Shown here: one piece after another, positions 2,484-12,986 of the stretch
Layout: every line of letters starts with the position of its first letter
Position numbering within the stretch: position 1 is the first letter of the stretch
UHGV virus genome: UHGV-0088497
Source: a virus
Length of the DNA stretch: 27,542 bases
Reading direction: 5' to 3' (one strand)
Notes under the pieces: model-generated
Told to the model about the DNA's origin: nothing
What the model saw: only the letters and a program-made list of their open reading frames with translations
Database searches by the model: none
Program-made: the position numbers and the translations under genes

Positions 2484-3110
2484 TTAAAGTTCGTACTGAA
2501 CGCCTTTGACAACTCCGATAATCAGGCAATTACCGTTTATTGAAATGTTTGGATAGCGTGGATTCAAGGGAACTAAGAACTTTTGAGGCCCATCGATGAC
2601 GAGTTTTTTTACAGTAGCCTCGCTTGTCCCATCAAGCCTGGCTACGACTATCTTTCCATTAAATGGCTCTGCATCAGGATCTACTATGACCGTTGCCCCT
2701 TCTGGGATTGTGGGGAGCCCATTAGGGTTTGTCATCGAATCACCTTTGACCTCCAATGCAAAGGAGCTATCACCTATCCTGAGTGATGTTTCTACCCACT
2801 TATCTACTTCACTGAAAACTTCTGCTGCTTTACATTCTGTAAACTGTCCAGCCTGAACCCAAGATATCACCGGAATCCTTCGCATCTTGGTTATCAGATT
2901 CCCTTCGAATTCAGTGCCATAAAGTATGTAATCAATTGATGTGTTGAAATACTTTGCAAGTTTCGCAAGTGACTCACCGCCTGGCACATTAATGTCTTTT
3001 TCCCAATACCCAACCGCCACATCGCTAACACCACAGAACTTACCCAGTTCTTTCTGCGAGGTTTTAGTTATGCGCCTGAGAGCTTTGATGCGCTGACCGA
3101 CAGTTTCCAT
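2484..3110 (-). CDS. cI: CI-like prophage repressor (N-terminal HTH_XRE, C-terminal S24/LexA-like autopeptidase)
   Basis: HTH segment QKELGKFCGVSDVAVGYWE; S24 hallmark GDSM (Ser) with downstream Lys (KKLV). ATG at 3110 gives METVGQRIKAL; the ORF-track start at 3143 is TTG and unlikely. Divergent from the cro-like gene. Confidence 0.85.
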   Translation of the reverse strand: METVGQRIKALRRITKTSQKELGKFCGVSDVAVGYWEKDINVPGGESLAKLAKYFNTSIDYILYGTEFEGNLITKMRRIPVISWVQAGQFTECKAAEVFSEVDKWVETSLRIGDSSFALEVKGDSMTNPNGLPTIPEGATVIVDPDAEPFNGKIVVARLDGTSEATVKKLVIDGPQKFLVPLNPRYPNISINGNCLIIGVVKGVQYEL

Positions 3111-3133
3111 TTGAACACCATAAAAAATTAAAA

Positions 3134-3205
3134 GGCTAAGCAATCTTAGTTTTTATTGACCAAAGTTAGATTGGTTATTAATATCTAATCAAACTTAGCT
3201 AAGGG
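3134..3205. promoter_or_regulatory. OR-like operator/promoter region between divergent cI and cro (PR candidate -35 TTGACC 3156-3161, -10 TAATAT 3179-3184)
   Basis: Palindromic sites CTAAGCAATCTTAG (3136-3149), CTAATCAAACTTAG (3185-3198) and CTTAGCTAAG (3194-3203); sigma70-like hexamers with 17-bp spacing for the rightward promoter. Confidence 0.6.
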
Positions 3206-3211
3206 GGCATT

Positions 3212-3439
3212 ATGACAACCGATGATATTGAAAACTACTTCGGCAGTACTGAGAAAGTTGCCGAGTTTTTTGGAATCACAAGCGAGGCCGTTTACCAGTG
3301 GCGTAATAGAACTGGTCGCCTAATCCCGAAAGGACGTGCAGCAGAAGCAGCCTATCGGACTGGGGGAAAATTGGTTTTCCATCCCGACCTTTACGAAAAG
3401 CGTAGCGATGCTTCAGTAAAACTCAAACCACAGGAATAA
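3212..3439 (+). CDS. cro: Cro-like small DNA-binding regulator
   Basis: 75-aa ORF divergent from cI, SD AGGGGG upstream of ATG 3212, HTH-like segment FGITSEAVYQWRNRTG; position-typical. Confidence 0.65.
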   Translation: MTTDDIENYFGSTEKVAEFFGITSEAVYQWRNRTGRLIPKGRAAEAAYRTGGKLVFHPDLYEKRSDASVKLKPQE

Positions 3440-3449
3440 GGGGGGAGCT

Positions 3450-4001
3450 GTGGGTAACGAACCTATTTGGAAAGTCGAACGTCAGCCAGCCTGGCTGGTG
3501 GCGGCGATAAAAAAAACGATCACCGATCTTCCTGGTGGTTATGCCGAGGCGGCGGAATGGTTGGGCGTGACAGAGAACGCATTGTTCAACCGCCTTCGTG
3601 TTGACGGCGACCAAATCTTCCCGCTGGGCTGGGCAATGGTTTTACAACGTGCTGGTGGTTCAACTCATATTGCTGATGCCGTTGCGCGCCATTCTCAGGG
3701 CGTATTTGTACCGCTGGCAGATGTCGATGATCTGGATAACGCCGATATCAACCAGCGCCTGATGGAGTCCATCGAATGGATAGGCCGTCATTCGAATTTT
3801 GTACGTAAAGCCACGGCTGATGGGGTAATTGACGCAGATGAGCGTGCTCAGATTGAGGAAAACAGCTATCAGGTTATCGCGAAGTTCCAGGAGCACGTAA
3901 CGCTTCTTTATCGAGTTTTTTGTGTCGCTGAAAAGAGTGACGCCCGCGAGTGTGCAGCTCCGGGCGCCTTGGCGAACAACTCTTCGAGTATGGAGAAATA
4001 A
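3450..4001 (+). CDS. CII-like (CP76-type) lysogeny-establishment regulatory protein
   Basis: 183-aa ORF immediately after cro, GTG start with AAGGGGGGAG upstream. Family call from memory of ~180-aa phage regulatory protein CII (CP76) proteins; not verified. Confidence 0.5.
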   Translation: MGNEPIWKVERQPAWLVAAIKKTITDLPGGYAEAAEWLGVTENALFNRLRVDGDQIFPLGWAMVLQRAGGSTHIADAVARHSQGVFVPLADVDDLDNADINQRLMESIEWIGRHSNFVRKATADGVIDADERAQIEENSYQVIAKFQEHVTLLYRVFCVAEKSDARECAAPGALANNSSSMEK

Positions 4002-4149: not shown

Positions 4150-4344
4150 CTACAACCGGAGGGCAAAACGCCTGTGCGCGAACTTAACCGAAGGTTCAAA
4201 GACCACCGTGGAGTGCCAGTCCGTGTTATCCGCTGGGAGCCAGAAACACAGCGCGTTATCTATCTGCGTGATGGCTACCCGCACGAATGCTTCAGCCCAC
4301 TTGAGCATTTCAGGCAAAAATTCAGGGAGATAACGGACGATCAT
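4150..4344 (-). CDS. hypothetical small protein (about 65 aa) antisense in the cII-like to replication-gene gap
   Basis: Minus-strand ORF with more typical codon choice than the competing plus-strand ORF 3950-4333, which is rich in AGG/AGA/CGG/CTA codons. Weak call; the region may be non-coding. Confidence 0.2.
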   Translation of the reverse strand: MIVRYLPEFLPEMLKWAEAFVRVAITQIDNALCFWLPADNTDWHSTVVFEPSVKFAHRRFALRL

Positions 4345-5209
4345 GAGCACTAAATTAACCGGCTACGTATGGGATGGTTGCGCGGCGTCGGGCATGAAGT
4401 TGTCTAGTGTCGCGATCATGGCTCGACTCGCTGATTTCAGCAGTGATGAGGGCGTATGCTGGCCGTCAATTGAAACTATTGCTCGCCAGCTTGGCGCAGG
4501 CCCGAGCACTATCAGAACGGCAATCGCAAAGCTTGAAAAAGATGGCTGGCTCACGCGTACACAGCGCCGTAATGGTAACCGTAATGCTTCGAACGTGTAC
4601 CGCCTGAATGTGGCGAAACTTCAGGCTGCCGCATTTTCTCAACTGTCAGATTCTGACACATCAAAATCTGACGCATCAAAATTTGACACCTCAAAAACTG
4701 ACCCGTCGAAATCCGGCAAAAACGGCGGTTTTGACCCGTCAGAATCTGGCGGGGATCCGTCAGTAAAATCAAAACAAGATCCACAAGTAACTTTAAAACC
4801 CTCTTGTCCGGTTGCGGCGCAACCCGACCCTGAGGTTGTGATTACTGATCAGGCCAGACAGGTTTTGTCTTACCTGAACCAGACAACTGGTTCACGCTAC
4901 CAGGTATGCAGCACGTCGCTGGAGAACATTCGCGCCCGTCTGCGGGAACAGTTCACTGTTGATGATCTGTGCCTTGTGGTGGATTACAAAAACGCTGATT
5001 GGCGTGATAGCGAGCAGGCTCAATACCTCCGCCCGGCAACTCTGTTTATTCCAAAAAACTTCCCCGGTTACCTGCAAAGCGCGACCAAATGGTCTGCCGC
5101 TGGGCGACCTGAACGCGTTAACGGTAAATGGGCGACTAACTCAGCCAGCCGCGCAAACTTCCAAAATGTTGACTATTCACTGCCAGAAAATTCGGGGTTC
5201 CGCTCTTGA
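4343..5209 (+). CDS. replication initiation protein (N-terminal wHTH, conserved phage C-terminal domain; functional analogue of lambda O)
   Basis: 288-aa ORF after the cII-like gene; N-terminal HTH (PSIETIARQLGAGPSTIRTAIAKLEKDGWL); internal iteron repeats within the linker coding sequence, as in lambda O. Confidence 0.75.
   Translation: MSTKLTGYVWDGCAASGMKLSSVAIMARLADFSSDEGVCWPSIETIARQLGAGPSTIRTAIAKLEKDGWLTRTQRRNGNRNASNVYRLNVAKLQAAAFSQLSDSDTSKSDASKFDTSKTDPSKSGKNGGFDPSESGGDPSVKSKQDPQVTLKPSCPVAAQPDPEVVITDQARQVLSYLNQTTGSRYQVCSTSLENIRARLREQFTVDDLCLVVDYKNADWRDSEQAQYLRPATLFIPKNFPGYLQSATKWSAAGRPERVNGKWATNSASRANFQNVDYSLPENSGFRS
4643..4775 (+). repeat. iteron array (ori-like): about six degenerate copies of CTGACNCATCAAAAT at ~15-bp period, followed by an AT-rich stretch
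   Basis: Read directly: ctgacacatcaaaat / ctgacgcatcaaaat / ttgacacctcaaaaa / ctgacccgtcgaaat / ttgacccgtcagaat / ccgtcagtaaaatcaaaa; encodes the repetitive SDSDTSKSDASKFDTSKTDPSKS peptide. Confidence 0.6.
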
Positions 5210-6525
5210 TGCCAAATAAATATTGCCAGGCGCTGGCAGAACTGCGCAGTAAACCAGCTCACGAATTGAAAGAAGTTGGAGATCAGTGGAGGACACCTGA
5301 TCTGCTTTTCTGGGGGATCAACGCGTTATTTGGCCCATTAGTTCTGGACTTGTTTGCTGACGACGACAACGCGAAATGCCCGGCATGGTACACCGCCGAA
5401 GATAACGCGCTGACCCAGGACTGGTCTGAACGTCTGGCAAAACTGGGTGGTGCAGGTTATGGCAACCCACCGTATAGCCGTTCGCAGTACCACGAGAAAC
5501 AGGCGATCACTGGTATGACGCACATCATGAAGTACGCAGCAGCCCAGCGCGAGAAGGGCGGTCGCTATGTATTCCTGATAAAAGCCGCGCCAAGTGAAAC
5601 GTGGTGGCCGGAAGATGCCGATCACATTGTATTCATTCGCGGGCGCATTGGGTTCGATCTGCCTGTGTGGTTTGTACCTGCTGACGAAAAACAGAAGCCC
5701 ACCAGCGCGTTTTTTGCCGGTGCCATAGCTGTATTCGATAAGTCATGGCGTGGTGAGCGGTTCAGCTATATCAACCGTACCGAACTGGAGGCAAAAGGGC
5801 GGGCGTTTATGACTTTGGCGCAATTTGCTGCCAGCAAGTCTCAACCTGCAACTGCCACACCATCTGTAGCTGACAAGCCAGAAGCAGAGTTGCCACTTAC
5901 CCAGAAAGATATTTTTGATATCAGCGGTGTCGAGGCGTGGGCATGCGTTAGAGCTGCGTTCGGCGATAAAGAAGAATACACATTTAGTGAATCGAAGTTT
6001 GGGCATACCTGGGCGGCGGATTCTGTCGAAGCACCGGAATTCACTCAGGTATCACCATTAACGATCGACAAAGCGAAGCTGCTTATTCGTGAGAGTATTT
6101 TGTTCGGTGTGGATGAGTGGCTGTTGTCGATTGAATTCGATGACGCTGCTGCGCGCCTGGATATGTCGGAACGTATTCGTACTGTTGCCCTTGAAGCATC
6201 TGGTGAATATGGCATGAACAGTACTGATTTCATTGCAGCTATGGGAAGCCTGGATGTTTCCAGTTGGTCCAATATTCGCCAGATCCGCATGCACATCCGT
6301 GAGAAAACTAAACCAGTATCGGATCCGCTTCCCGAGTCCCGTATCTGGCCGCTGGAGGTTGGAATTGTATTCGACCAGGTAGACGGCGCTGACATGCTGG
6401 ATGAATCACAGCAGAACAAGCTGAAAGCCAACATCAATCAACTCTGGCTGGAACGAACGGCCACCAGCGAAATCATTACTGCTGCTTCTGAACTTGTTCG
6501 CAATATGCGGGGAGAGGCCGCGTGA
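5209..6525 (+). CDS. phage Dam-family N6-adenine DNA methyltransferase (NPPY motif) with a ~250-aa C-terminal extension of unknown function
   Basis: GNPPY catalytic motif in the N-terminal ~190 aa; ATG at 5209 overlaps the upstream TGA; the C-terminal region has no motif I recognise. Confidence 0.7.
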   Translation: MPNKYCQALAELRSKPAHELKEVGDQWRTPDLLFWGINALFGPLVLDLFADDDNAKCPAWYTAEDNALTQDWSERLAKLGGAGYGNPPYSRSQYHEKQAITGMTHIMKYAAAQREKGGRYVFLIKAAPSETWWPEDADHIVFIRGRIGFDLPVWFVPADEKQKPTSAFFAGAIAVFDKSWRGERFSYINRTELEAKGRAFMTLAQFAASKSQPATATPSVADKPEAELPLTQKDIFDISGVEAWACVRAAFGDKEEYTFSESKFGHTWAADSVEAPEFTQVSPLTIDKAKLLIRESILFGVDEWLLSIEFDDAAARLDMSERIRTVALEASGEYGMNSTDFIAAMGSLDVSSWSNIRQIRMHIREKTKPVSDPLPESRIWPLEVGIVFDQVDGADMLDESQQNKLKANINQLWLERTATSEIITAASELVRNMRGEAA

Positions 6526-6968
6526 AACTGATCCTGCCTTTTCCTCCGAGCGTGAACACTTACTGGCGCGCCCCTAACAAGGGGCCGCTGGCCGGTCGTC
6601 ACCTCATTAGCGCTGATGGCCGTAAATACCAGAGCACTGCCTGCGTGGCGATCATTGAGCAATTACGACGTCTCCCGAAGCCATCGACCGAATTGGCAGC
6701 GGTAGAAATCACTCTGTACCCGCCGGATGCGCGCCGCAGGGATATCGATAATTACAACAAAGCCCTGTTTGACGCGCTGACGCATGCGGGTGTCTGGGAA
6801 GATGACAGCCAGATTAAGCGCATGCTGGTGGAATGGGGACCCGTTGTGCCGAAAGGTCGGGTAGAGATAACGATCAGCAGATATGAACCGGCGGGTGCAG
6901 CCGCCTTATATGGAGAAAAGTATGAGCCAGTTAATCGTGAATGGTGTAGTAACAATGTCCAGCCGTGA
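6522..6968 (+). CDS. rusA: RusA Holliday junction resolvase
   Basis: 148-aa ORF with RusA-like N-terminus (ILPFPPSVNTYW) and acidic residues (DIDNYNK, DALTHAG...DD); GTG start overlapping the upstream stop. Confidence 0.85.
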   Translation: MKLILPFPPSVNTYWRAPNKGPLAGRHLISADGRKYQSTACVAIIEQLRRLPKPSTELAAVEITLYPPDARRRDIDNYNKALFDALTHAGVWEDDSQIKRMLVEWGPVVPKGRVEITISRYEPAGAAALYGEKYEPVNREWCSNNVQP

Positions 6969-7608
6969 TATTGCGGATCTGGTTCAGAGTAAACACAGTG
7001 ACGTGAAACGCTCGGCTGAGCGTCTTGTTGCTGCGGGAATTTTAACCGCGCCATTGGCGCAGTTCGATTTTGAGCATAACGGTAATGTGTACCAGGAGTA
7101 TCGTTTTAACAAACGCGACTCTCTGGTGATTGTTGCCAGATTATCACCTGAATTTACCGCCGCGGTCGTCGATCGCTGGCAGGAACTGGAAGAAGGACAG
7201 AGTGTCAGTGTTCCCCGCTCATTACCGGAAGCGCTTCGCCTGGCTGCTGATTTAGCCGAGCAGAAAGAGCAACTGACGATCCAGCTGGCAGCCGCGGCGC
7301 CAAAAGTGGAGTTTGTTGATCGTTATTGCTCTGCAAAAGGCTCCATGTCATTCCGGCAGGTAGCCAAATTGCTTAACGCAAAAGAAACTGAGTTTCGTCT
7401 GTTCCTTATTGAACGCAATATCCTGTATCGCCTCGGCGGCACACTTACCCCCATGGCGCAGCACATTTCCGCGGGAAGATTTGAAGTTAAGACGGGAACA
7501 TCGAGCACATCCAATCACGCATTCAGCCAGACGCGTTTCACTGCCAAGGGAGTACGCTGGATTGGTGGTTTGTGGGCTGAACATATTGCAGGGGGGCAGG
7601 CGGCGTGA
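6922..7608 (+). CDS. Rha-family phage regulatory protein / antirepressor (Rha N-terminal domain plus ANT/KilAC-like C-terminus)
   Basis: N-terminus MSQLIVNGVVTMSSRDIADLVQSKHSDVKR matches the Rha pattern; GGAG 6 nt upstream of ATG 6922; C-terminal FRQVAKLLNAKETEFRLFLIERNILYR is ANT-like. Confidence 0.7.
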   Translation: MSQLIVNGVVTMSSRDIADLVQSKHSDVKRSAERLVAAGILTAPLAQFDFEHNGNVYQEYRFNKRDSLVIVARLSPEFTAAVVDRWQELEEGQSVSVPRSLPEALRLAADLAEQKEQLTIQLAAAAPKVEFVDRYCSAKGSMSFRQVAKLLNAKETEFRLFLIERNILYRLGGTLTPMAQHISAGRFEVKTGTSSTSNHAFSQTRFTAKGVRWIGGLWAEHIAGGQAA

Positions 7609-11933: not shown

Positions 11934-12986
11934 ATGAAAAATACTGTAAAAATAAACAGGGTTGAGTTAATCAACGCTGATAGCCTGCATTACGTCGCCA
12001 CCCTCCCGGATAACTCTATTGATCTGATTGTTACGGATCCTCCGTACTTCAAAGTGAAGCCTAACGGCTGGGACAACCAATGGAAGGGGGACGAGGACTA
12101 CTTACGCTGGCTTGATAGCTGCCTGGCTGAGTATGCTCGCGTTCTTAAACCTGCTGGCAGCATCTACCTGTTTTGCGGTCACCGACTGGCCTCAGACATA
12201 GAGATTATGATGCGTACCCGGTTCAAAGTTTTGAATCACATCATTTGGGCAAAACCATCGGGCCGCTGGAATGGATGTAACAAAGAAAGCCTGCGTGCGT
12301 ACTTTCCATCTACGGAACGGATTTTGTTTGCTGAGCACTATCTTGGGCCGTACACAGGTAAAGAGGATGTTTACGAAAGGAAAAGCACAGAGCTAAAGCA
12401 GCACATTATGACGCCGCTGATTGATTACTTCCGTAATGCCCGTGAATCACTGGGAGTCAGCTCGAAAGAAATAGCTGAGGCAACCGGAAAGAAAAACATG
12501 GCGTCACACTGGTTTGGTGCAAGCCAATGGCAACTACCAAATGAAGTGGACTATAGAAAATTGCAGGAACTGTTCACGCGGATCGCTATCGATAAGCACA
12601 TTCAGCAGAAGCTTGAACATCCTCACCACCAGCTGGTAGCCACCTATCAGTCATTAAACCGCAAGTATTCAGAATTGCTGGAGGAATACAAAACCCTCCG
12701 GCGCTGCTTCTCTGTTTCCGCTTTTGTTCCGTATACCGACGTATGGACGCATAAGCCTGTTCAGTTTTATCCAGGCAAACATCCATGCGAAAAACCTGCC
12801 GACATGCTGAAGCAGATCATTAGCGCCAGCAGCAGACCGGGGGATATCGTTGCCGATTTCTTTATGGGCTCTGGTTCAACTGTGAAAGCTGCAATAGAAC
12901 TTGGTCGTCGGGCGATCGGCGTAGAACTGGAAACCGACAGGTTTATTCAGACCACCGAAGAGGTGGAAAAACTCAACAAAACATAA
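11934..12986 (+). CDS. beta-class DNA methyltransferase (motif IV DPPY before motif I FxGxG), N6-adenine or N4-cytosine specific, no adjacent restriction gene seen
   Basis: VTDPPYF near the N-terminus and DFFMGSGST near the C-terminus give the beta-class motif order. Confidence 0.8.
   Translation: MKNTVKINRVELINADSLHYVATLPDNSIDLIVTDPPYFKVKPNGWDNQWKGDEDYLRWLDSCLAEYARVLKPAGSIYLFCGHRLASDIEIMMRTRFKVLNHIIWAKPSGRWNGCNKESLRAYFPSTERILFAEHYLGPYTGKEDVYERKSTELKQHIMTPLIDYFRNARESLGVSSKEIAEATGKKNMASHWFGASQWQLPNEVDYRKLQELFTRIAIDKHIQQKLEHPHHQLVATYQSLNRKYSELLEEYKTLRRCFSVSAFVPYTDVWTHKPVQFYPGKHPCEKPADMLKQIISASSRPGDIVADFFMGSGSTVKAAIELGRRAIGVELETDRFIQTTEEVEKLNKT

What the first reader, a model, noticed from the sequence alone, without database searches (positions are those of the whole stretch)
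4643..4775. Iteron-type origin embedded in the replication initiator gene
About six tandem degenerate 15-bp repeats (consensus near CTGACNCATCAAAAT) followed by an AT-rich segment lie inside the linker coding region of the O-like initiator, mirroring lambda ori inside O. The protein repeat SDSDTSKSDASKFDTSKTDPSKS is the coding shadow of the DNA repeat.
Basis: partly seen in the sequence, partly recalled or inferred. Interest (0 to 1): 0.45.

Follow-up and report, generated by a model that had tools for sequence, protein, structure and literature searches.

The report
Phage replication origin inside initiator gene
A roughly 195-base stretch in the middle of a prophage's replication-initiator gene is almost certainly the phage's origin of replication, built like the classic lambda origin: a sound but ordinary finding for a less-studied initiator family.

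Summary
Window 4646-4750 holds six copies of a 12-bp core, TCAAAATCTGAC. Five are spaced 15 bp apart and one lies 33 bp further on. A 40-bp AT-rich stretch follows (4759-4799, GC 0.275).

The array lies in the low-complexity linker of a 288-aa initiator (4343-5209) with an HTH_36 winged-helix N-terminus and a Phg_2220_C C-terminus.

The decisive evidence is comparative. In 72 homologues from many Enterobacterales genera, synonymous codon identity is about 0.43 in the N-terminal domain. It is about 0.84 (median 0.95) across codons 98-162 (window 4634-4828). No alternative reading frame is open there. The DNA itself is therefore under selection.

The constrained element is larger than reported. 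It comprises:
- the iterons
- an inverted iteron copy
- two conserved GATC 14-mers in the AT-rich segment
- a covarying palindrome (4806-4828)

Providencia and Proteus homologues fuse this left half to the right arm of ori-lambda and a lambda-O-type C-terminus. That places the element at the position of ori-lambda.

More distant HTH_36 initiators carry their own iterons at the same place. SPP1 G38P, which shares the C-terminal family, has a proven origin inside its own gene.

Verdict: a new member of a known kind. No experiment exists for it. Interest is modest.

The parts
4343..5209 (+). Initiator gene (288 aa): HTH_36 winged-helix N-terminal domain, low-complexity linker, Phg_2220_C C-terminal domain
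   Evidence: ORF list. Pfam HTH_36 E 8e-12 at aa 23-70 and Phg_2220_C E 1e-25 at aa 174-245. PHROG matches 'replication initiation O-like' and 'primosomal protein'.
4634..4828 (.). Whole zone under DNA-level constraint (codons 98-162): the proposed origin
   Evidence: Pairwise synonymous codon identity is 0.84 (median 0.95) here. It is 0.43 in codons 1-97 and 0.52 in codons 163-185, across 72 homologues; Mann-Whitney p 2.6e-19. No alternative frame is open across the zone.
4645..4657 (.). First iteron, a perfect 13-bp palindrome GTCAGATTCTGAC
   Evidence: Matches on both strands; inverted repeat I6.
4661..4717 (+). Four further iterons at 15-bp spacing: cores at 4661-4672, 4676-4687, 4691-4702 and 4706-4717, the last degenerate. 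Each core TCAAAATCTGAC is followed by a 3-nt variable spacer.
   Evidence: Per-position information is 1.3-2.0 bits at most core positions (0.85-1.05 bits at core positions 4, 11 and 12) and 0.4-0.65 bits in the spacer, from 397 units.
4718..4728 (.). Short variable spacer between the tandem array and the conserved right core
   Evidence: Not conserved among the 72 homologues.
4729..4750 (.). TTTTGACCCGTCAGAATCTGGC: an inverted copy of the 15-bp unit that overlaps the sixth direct core (4739-4750). It contains the dyad TGACCCGTCA.
   Evidence: Inverted repeats I1-I3, 85% complementary to the first unit. Nearly invariant in 72 homologues. The dyad resembles the iteron core TTGACCCGTCAA of the O157 prophage homologue, whose conserved right core begins at GTCAGAATCTGG.
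4754..4767 (+). GATC 14-mer number 1, GATCCGTCAGTAAA (Dam site at 4754-4757)
   Evidence: GATC present in 72/72 homologues. Direct repeat D2 with 4733-4742.
4759..4799 (.). AT-rich segment with an A-rich coding strand: candidate DNA-unwinding element
   Evidence: GC 0.275. In 72 homologues the mean GC is 0.31 against 0.52 for the gene, and A/(A+T) is 0.68.
4778..4791 (+). GATC 14-mer number 2, GATCCACAAGTAAC, 24 bp after the first
   Evidence: A second GATC at +24 in 62/72 homologues. The same motif occurs in three copies in phage EKP1.
4806..4828 (.). Palindrome GTCCGGTTGCG-G-CGCAACCCGAC at the right edge of the origin
   Evidence: Inverted repeat I7, 11-nt arms, 91% complementary. As single-stranded DNA the hairpin folds at -8.5 kcal/mol, z -2.5. 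In 44 distinct homologue versions 77.7% of cells pair, against 20-43% when slid. There are 29 double-sided changes, and 0/500 shuffles reach the observed value.

Best explanation
Window 4634-4828 is the phage's origin of theta-type replication. It lies within the linker-coding part of its own initiator gene and has the architecture of ori-lambda and of SPP1 oriL.

**Proposed mechanism (all steps inferred)**
1. The winged-helix N-terminal domain of the 288-aa protein binds the six 15-bp-phased iterons. Their half-sites are TCTGAC and (G/A)TCA(A/G)A, so binding is probably as dimers. This would form a nucleoprotein complex.
2. The stress of that complex on supercoiled DNA, helped by rightward early transcription through the site, opens the adjacent 40-bp A-rich segment that carries two Dam sites.
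3. The Phg_2220_C C-terminal domain then recruits the host helicase, DnaB, with or without DnaC. The early operon encodes no phage helicase or helicase loader.
4. The palindrome marks the right border of the origin. It travels with the C-terminal module when modules are exchanged.

**Shown here**
- The anatomy of the element.
- Selection acting on the DNA itself.
- Co-inheritance of the iterons with the N-terminal domain.
- Positional homology with ori-lambda.

**Inferred**
- Binding, unwinding and helicase loading.
For: - **Repeats are non-random and clustered**.
- **Synonymous sites are frozen over codons 98-162 only**, in 72 homologues whose N-terminal domains are 67-99% identical. Variation is confined to the 3-nt spacer of each unit and to one short spacer at 4718-4728.
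- **No overlapping ORF, Rfam family, promoter or terminator** accounts for the constraint.
- **The AT-rich segment and the GATC pair are conserved**.
- **The palindrome shows compensatory changes**.
- **Lambda link:** Providencia and Proteus homologues join this N-terminus, iteron array and AT-rich core to the right arm of ori-lambda and to a lambda-O-type C-terminus. The SfIV C-terminus matches lambda O at 30% identity, E 1e-25.
- **Other iteron sets at the same place:** more distant HTH_36 initiators (EKP1, Kp4885-1, BZS1, Stx2a_F451, RothC, an O157 prophage) each have their own iterons there.
- **No orphan copies:** of 80 IMG/VR contigs with the origin core, 76 carry the N-terminal domain in the same ORF. 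The other four are cut, frameshifted or truncated.
- **Proven analogues:** SPP1 G38P is a pfam09524 protein whose proven oriL, made of iterons plus a DNA-unwinding element, is embedded in gene 38 (PMC5737612). Ori-lambda consists of iterons plus an AT-rich tract in the middle of O (PMC7466680).
Against: - There is no experimental evidence of binding or origin activity for this family. No paper describing it was found.
- The 15-bp iteron period is shorter than in lambda, where spacing is 20-24 bp. How proteins would pack on it is unclear.
- The AT-rich tract is short and only about 72% AT.
- The sixth unit and the right core are retained unchanged behind an N-terminal domain with a different iteron array, in the O157 prophage. 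That part may therefore not be an initiator-specific site.
- No helicase or loader gene lies nearby, and no DnaA boxes exceed chance. The helicase-loading step is a guess.
- The register of protein contacts is unresolved. It could be TCAAAATCTGAC, or the dyad TGACnnnTCA centred on the variable codon.
Confidence: 0.82

Rival explanations
1. The repeats are only a flexible Ser/Asp/Lys-rich protein linker that grew by replication slippage. On this view the DNA repeat has no cis-acting role.
For: The peptide is of low complexity. Copy number varies from 1 to 9 among homologues. The single-sequence AlphaFold model shows no secondary structure for aa 104-168, but its confidence is low.
Against: Protein-level selection cannot fix wobble positions. 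TCA, AAA and TCT are used in 94-100% of homologues at most well-populated repeat columns, while synonymous sites in the adjacent domain are saturated. The one codon per unit that is free at the DNA level also varies freely in amino acid. The non-repetitive 100 bp downstream is equally frozen.
Confidence: 0.04
2. The frozen segment is a conserved junction between modules. It would be kept similar by frequent recent homologous recombination among lambdoid phages rather than by selection for origin function.
For: Module junctions do fall inside the segment. One lies after the iteron array (O157 prophage). Another lies at the palindrome (SfIV, Kp4873-4 and Providencia types).
Against: Recent common descent would give uniformly low divergence. 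The variation instead has a 15-bp periodicity: the spacer codons are free and the core is fixed. The palindrome changes by compensatory pairs. Conservation spans hosts from Citrobacter to Proteus, with N-terminal domains only 67-75% identical. Junctions inside ori-lambda are expected, because the left half matches the N-terminal domain and the right half matches the C-terminal domain.
Confidence: 0.05
3. The array is a binding site for the initiator or another regulator with a role other than initiation. Candidate roles are autoregulation or translational and transcriptional roadblock, copy control by handcuffing, or a Dam/SeqA-controlled switch. The true origin would lie elsewhere.
For: Iterons in plasmids also serve in copy control. 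Two conserved GATC sites lie 24 bp apart. A Dam-family methyltransferase gene lies directly downstream in about half of the homologous loci.
Against: The full set of origin features is present together: iterons, AT-rich tract and palindrome. It is positionally homologous to ori-lambda and parallels SPP1 oriL. No other iteron cluster exists in the window. Regulatory roles would add to origin function rather than replace it.
Confidence: 0.07
4. The constraint reflects an overlapping gene or a structured RNA encoded in this stretch.
For: In the window, ORFs are open on the + strand (4608-4766) and on the - strand (4551-4784).
Against: Four alternative frames contain stops in all 72 homologues, and the fifth is open in only 29. 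The ATG at 4608 is not conserved. Rfam gives only a chance-level microRNA hit. No promoter or terminator signal exceeds the shuffled expectation.
Confidence: 0.02

Closest known systems
Ori-lambda inside gene O of phage lambda, and the 4-6 iteron origins of Stx phages 933W and P27
   Same: - The origin lies in the middle of the initiator gene, between the DNA-binding N-terminal part and the C-terminal part.
- Direct repeats have internal dyad symmetry.
- An adjacent AT-rich tract of about 40 bp has an A-rich coding strand, followed by a palindrome.
- The element sits in the rightward early operon after cro and cII.
- Natural hybrids join this left half to the lambda right arm and a lambda-O-type C-terminus.
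   Different: - The iteron sequence and spacing differ: a 12-bp core at 15-bp period, against 18-bp iterons at 20-24 bp.
- The N-terminal domain matches Pfam HTH_36, not Phage_rep_O, and shows no BLASTP similarity to lambda O.
- The C-terminus is Phg_2220_C.
- No P-type helicase loader gene follows.
- Two conserved GATC sites lie in the AT-rich tract.
SPP1 oriL inside gene 38, with the replisome organizer G38P (pfam09524)
   Same: The C-terminal Pfam family is the same, PF09524. The protein is a non-AAA+ initiator. Its origin, made of iterons (AB boxes) plus an AT-rich unwinding element, is embedded in its own gene. A 356-bp oriL is necessary and sufficient in vitro (PMC5737612).
   Different: SPP1 is a lytic phage of a Gram-positive host. 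It supplies its own helicase (G40P) and loader (G39P). No such genes are present here. The iteron sequences are unrelated.
Shigella phages SfII and SfIV, E. coli prophage initiators, and the K-12 CPS-53 yfdO remnant
   Same: These share the same N-terminal domain (80-89% identity), the same iterons and the same AT-rich core.
   Different: The C-terminal domain is of the lambda-O type instead of Phg_2220_C. The right-arm palindrome differs (GTCCGG...CCGGAC). The SfIV genome paper does not mention an origin.
Iteron plasmids (pSC101, P1, F, R6K, RK2 Rep proteins)
   Same: Winged-helix initiators bind tandem iterons next to an AT-rich unwinding element. P1 oriR also has GATC-containing repeats in its AT-rich region (own knowledge).
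   Different: Plasmid origins lie outside the rep gene and usually include DnaA boxes. No DnaA box here exceeds chance. The only plasmid replication-protein family found in the Pfam scan, RP-C, scored below its cut-off.

Membership tests
Lambda-type intragenic iteron origin (architecture class) | The origin lies inside the initiator gene, between the segments coding for the N-terminal DNA-binding part and the C-terminal part | tested here: met
   The repeats lie between Pfam HTH_36 (aa 23-70) and Phg_2220_C (aa 174-245). In Providencia and Proteus hybrids the segment abuts the lambda right arm.
Lambda-type intragenic iteron origin (architecture class) | Several direct repeats (iterons) with internal dyad symmetry | tested here: met
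   There are six units. The first is a perfect 13-bp palindrome and the last overlaps an inverted copy.
Lambda-type intragenic iteron origin (architecture class) | An AT-rich tract immediately downstream of the iterons | tested here: met
   4759-4799 has GC 0.275. In 72 homologues the mean is 0.31 against 0.52 for the gene.
Lambda-type intragenic iteron origin (architecture class) | A palindrome to the right of the AT-rich tract | tested here: met
   4806-4828, with covariation. The lambda counterpart is visible.
Lambda-type intragenic iteron origin (architecture class) | The DNA sequence itself is under selection, independent of the encoded protein | tested here: met
   Synonymous identity is 0.84 against 0.43 in the flanking domain. 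No overlapping ORF explains it.
Lambda-type intragenic iteron origin (architecture class) | The initiator binds the iterons, and the segment supports initiator-dependent replication | not testable with these tools
   This needs EMSA or footprinting and a plasmid replication assay.
Lambda O protein family (Pfam Phage_rep_O, PF04492) | The N-terminal domain matches Phage_rep_O | tested here: not met
   The window protein and all 50 homologues scanned match HTH_36, while lambda O matches Phage_rep_O. BLASTP against lambda O finds nothing. An HHpred-level link of lambda O to HTH_36 is reported in PMC5509034 but was not reproduced here.
Lambda O protein family (Pfam Phage_rep_O, PF04492) | A lambda-O-type C-terminal domain (the part that contacts P) | tested here: not met
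   It is absent from the window protein. It is present in the SfIV type (E 1e-25). A profile comparison of the two C-terminal types aligns only the tails, at probability 62%.
Replisome organizer family of SPP1 G38P (Pfam Phg_2220_C, PF09524) | The C-terminal domain matches PF09524 | tested here: met
   E 1.3e-25, 89.7 bits against a cut-off of 27. G38P is stated to be pfam09524.
Replisome organizer family of SPP1 G38P (Pfam Phg_2220_C, PF09524) | The origin (iterons plus unwinding element) is embedded in the organizer's own gene | tested here: met
   Same evidence as for the architecture class. For SPP1, see PMC5737612.
Replisome organizer family of SPP1 G38P (Pfam Phg_2220_C, PF09524) | Cognate helicase loader and helicase genes lie downstream | tested here: not met
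   The downstream genes are a Dam-family methyltransferase, RusA, an antirepressor, DUF968 and Q.
Iteron-plasmid Rep/origin systems | DnaA boxes in the origin and a Rep protein of a plasmid Rep family | tested here: not met
   DnaA-box matches are at chance level; the one in the origin has 2 mismatches. The only plasmid replication-protein family found, RP-C, scored below its cut-off.

The most novel reading that the evidence does not exclude
The origin may be a three-part cassette whose central piece is a portable, initiator-independent unwinding module. That piece is the inverted unit plus two GATC 14-mers in the A-rich tract (4729-4799).

It is shared unchanged by initiators with different iteron arrays, as in the O157 prophage. 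Its firing could be gated by adenine methylation: by the phage's own Dam-family enzyme, encoded directly downstream in about half of the relatives, or by host Dam and SeqA. This would give these 'solo-initiator' phages a methylation switch for replication that lambda lacks.
Probability: 0.15. Interest if true: 0.5.

Novelty: new member of a known kind. Interest (0 to 1): 0.3.

Why it matters
- **Annotation.** It gives a precise, testable origin for a widespread group of enterobacterial prophages. The group includes SfII/SfIV-like phages, phiNP, YeP3, many E. coli prophages and the K-12 CPS-53 remnant. Their records annotate only a 'replication protein O' or a 'helix-turn-helix protein'.
- **A general method.** An origin hidden in a gene can be found from frozen synonymous sites alone.
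- **Module boundaries.** The natural hybrids show where the exchangeable origin modules begin and end: the N-terminal domain with its iterons, the AT-rich core, and the palindrome with the C-terminal domain.
- **An open question.** These phages raise the question of how an initiator without a partner helicase loader recruits the host helicase.
- **Scope.** None of this overturns current understanding.

Tried and rejected
- **DnaA boxes:** matches to TTATCCACA with up to 2 mismatches are at chance level (83 found, 69 +/- 8 expected). The one in the origin is not conserved.
- **Rfam:** only a chance microRNA hit far below threshold.
- **Promoter and terminator scan:** nothing above the shuffled expectation.
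- **Overlapping ORFs:** rejected.
- **GC skew:** the cumulative skew across the window gives no origin signal.
- **C-terminal domain homology:** a profile comparison of the lambda-O-type and Phg_2220_C domains aligned only the C-terminal tails, at probability 62%. The reported HHpred link could not be confirmed.
- **PDB sequence search:** only weak MarR and PaaX winged-helix hits, E 0.02 or worse.
- **AlphaFold:**
  - The single-sequence model has mean pLDDT 45 and was not used for a fold search.
- **Literature:** searches for a description of this origin family found none.
- **Orphan origins:** a search for origin copies without an initiator in IMG/VR found none.

Full report
**Setting**

The window is part of a lambdoid prophage. 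Its best match is in Citrobacter murliniae, with 99% identity over the N-terminal 100 aa.

Around the finding lie these genes:
- an S24 CI-like repressor (2484-3143, minus strand)
- Cro (3212-3439)
- a CII-like activator (3450-4001)
- a DUF4222 gene (4174-4353)
- a 288-aa protein (4343-5209)
- a Dam-family methyltransferase fusion (5206-6525)
- RusA, an antirepressor, DUF968 and the antiterminator Q

The 288-aa protein has an HTH_36 winged-helix domain at aa 23-70 and a Phg_2220_C domain at aa 174-245. It matches PHROG families annotated as O-like replication initiators. No helicase or helicase-loader gene is present in the operon.

**The observation**

Tandem Repeats Finder reports a 15-bp period at 4652-4713. 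With the core TCAAAATCTGAC, copies lie at 4646, 4661, 4676, 4691, 4706 (degenerate) and 4739. Only two other matches with at most 2 mismatches occur in the remaining 27 kb.

Self-similarity at lag 15 is 44/60. Shuffles give 27.8 +/- 1.5, and 0/1000 reach the observed value.

The first unit, GTCAGATTCTGAC (4645-4657), is a perfect palindrome. TTTTGACCCGTCAGAATCTG (4729-4748) is an inverted copy of the 15-bp unit. The lowest-GC 40-bp window of the gene follows at 4759-4799, with GC 0.275.

**Is the DNA or the protein selected?**

I collected 77 loci from GTDB species representatives and four phage loci. From these I built a codon alignment of 72 homologues.

Among sequences that share the consensus amino acid, pairwise identity of the codon differs sharply by region:

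| Codons | Mean codon identity |
|---|---|
| 1-97 | 0.43 |
| 98-162 | 0.84 (median 0.95; 30 of 61 columns at 0.95 or higher) |
| 163-185 | 0.52 |

The difference between the first two regions gives Mann-Whitney p 2.6e-19.

Within each repeat unit, Ser is TCA or TCT, Lys is AAA and Asp is GAC almost without exception. The codon after GAC varies in both nucleotides and amino acid. Information is 1.3-2.0 bits at most core positions and 0.4-0.65 bits in the spacer, from 397 units that are all codon-aligned.

The non-repetitive 100 bp that follow are equally frozen. No alternative frame is open across the zone. Four frames have stops in all 72 sequences, and the fifth is open in 29. Rfam and the promoter and terminator scans give nothing.

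**Anatomy of the constrained zone (4634-4828)**

- **(i) Iterons.** Five tandem iterons lie at 4645-4717.
- **(ii) Variable spacer.** It spans 4718-4728.
- **(iii) Right core.** It spans 4729-4791. Its consensus in homologues is TTTT[G/C]ACCCG[T/C]CAGAATCTGGnGGGGATCCGTCAGTAAAtTCAAAAC..GATCC. It holds three features:
  - the inverted unit
  - the sixth direct core
  - two 14-mers starting with GATC, 24 bp apart
  - The first GATC is present in 72/72 homologues and the second in 62/72.
- **(iv) A-rich tract.** It spans 4759-4799. Mean GC is 0.31 in homologues against 0.52 for the gene.
- **(v) Palindrome.** GTCCGGTTGCG-G-CGCAACCCGAC lies at 4806-4828.
  - Across 44 distinct versions, 77.7% of cells pair, against 20-43% when the partner is slid.
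  - There are 29 double-sided changes, for example GGTTCCG/CGGAACC and GGTTGCC/GGCAACC, some of which alter the amino acid.
  - 0/500 shuffles reach the observed value.
  - The structure was derived from one of the sequences, so this is supportive rather than conclusive.

**Link to known origins**

Lambda's annotated origin has four 18-bp iterons, an A-rich tract, and then TTCGTCAGAGAATTCTGGCGAATCC. Providencia and Proteus homologues carry the present N-terminal domain, iterons and GATC/A-rich core. These are fused to TTCGTCGCAGAATTCTGGCGAATCC...GACCAGCC and to a lambda-O-type C-terminal domain.

SfIV-type proteins also have a lambda-O-type C-terminus, at 30% identity and E 1e-25. The segment therefore occupies the position of ori-lambda in natural hybrids. 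The left half travels with the N-terminal domain and the right arm travels with the C-terminal domain.

An O157:H7 prophage initiator is 52% identical in the N-terminal domain. It has a different iteron array (TTGACCCGTCAAAT) but an identical right core from GTCAGAATCTGG onward. This marks a second junction.

More distant HTH_36 initiators have their own iterons at the same place:

| Phage | Repeats found |
|---|---|
| EKP1 | 15-bp units plus three GATC-containing repeats |
| Kp4885-1 | 4 x 23 bp |
| BZS1 | 5 x about 24 bp |
| Stx2a_F451 | 3 x 21 bp |
| RothC | 4 x about 23 bp |

Of 80 IMG/VR contigs with an exact copy of the right core, 76 have the N-terminal domain in the same ORF. The rest are cut, frameshifted or truncated.

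SPP1 G38P is a pfam09524 protein. Its oriL, made of iterons plus an unwinding element, is embedded in gene 38, and a 356-bp oriL is necessary and sufficient in vitro (PMC5737612). Ori-lambda is described in the same terms in PMC7466680.

**Mechanism**

The most likely reading is a lambda/SPP1-type origin. The N-terminal winged helix binds the iterons. The A-rich tract opens. The C-terminal domain recruits the host helicase. Only the anatomy, the selection on DNA and the modular co-inheritance are shown here.

Open points:
- the register of contacts
- the meaning of the short 15-bp period
- the role of the GATC pair, given that a Dam-family gene lies directly downstream in 33/71 and 41/72 related loci
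- helicase loading without a phage loader, given that DnaA boxes are not enriched

**Membership and novelty**

The element meets every sequence-testable feature of the lambda-type intragenic origin class. Its protein belongs to the Phg_2220_C family of SPP1 G38P.

It is not a member of the Phage_rep_O family by Pfam or BLASTP. The reported HHpred relation (PMC5509034) could not be reproduced with shallow profiles.

I found no publication describing this origin. The SfIV genome paper does not mention one.

It is a new member of a known kind. The finding is well supported in silico, untested at the bench, and of modest interest.

Noticed in passing
window 4174-4353: A DUF4222 gene overlaps the start of the initiator gene. 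The same gene sits directly upstream of HTH_36 initiators in E. coli prophages, phage EKP1 and Serratia phage BZS1. This is a conserved gene pair of unknown function, possibly a replication accessory.
   Followed up: partly
window 5140-5209 (C-terminal tail of the initiator); L002, L003, L004, L058: Two kinds of C-terminal tail exist: a short one, '...VDYSLPENSGFRS', and a long one, '...ERDxAYxRF...WNxIWKE...'. Each occurs on both C-terminal core types, Phg_2220_C and lambda-O-type. The tail therefore looks like a further exchangeable module, perhaps a docking peptide for a host factor.
   Followed up: partly
L090 2502-3209 (E. coli K-12-type CPS-53/KpLE1, yfdO region): The yfdO pseudogene is an N-terminally truncated copy of this initiator family. 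It still matches the part of the query that holds the origin region (window 4576-4782, 85.6% identity). yfdN (PerC family) and a truncated Dam-family methyltransferase gene follow it.
   Followed up: partly
L089 2055-3767 (E. coli O157:H7 prophage): This initiator is 52% identical in the N-terminal domain and has a different iteron array (TTGACCCGTCAAAT). Its right core and lambda-O-type C-terminus are SfIV-like, with the right core nearly identical. A DnaC/IstB-like ATP-binding protein gene follows, unlike in the window.
   Followed up: partly
window 5206-6525: The methyltransferase ORF is 439 aa, but the Pfam Dam domain covers only aa 19-199. The C-terminal 240 aa have no Pfam match. A Dam-family gene lies directly downstream of the initiator in 33/71 GTDB loci and 41/72 viral loci.
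   Followed up: partly
L017, L021, L048, L083: Typical Enterobacterales prophage loci with this initiator appear in records named Vagococcus, Chryseobacterium, Martelella and 'Elizabethkingia phage EKP1'. These are probably contaminated or mislabelled assemblies.
   Followed up: no
window 11934-12986: A second DNA methyltransferase gene (N6_N4_Mtase) lies in the same prophage.
   Followed up: no
window 6522-6968 and 6883-7608: The listed RusA and antirepressor (Rha/KilAC) ORFs overlap by 86 nt. The antirepressor probably starts at a later start codon.
   Followed up: no
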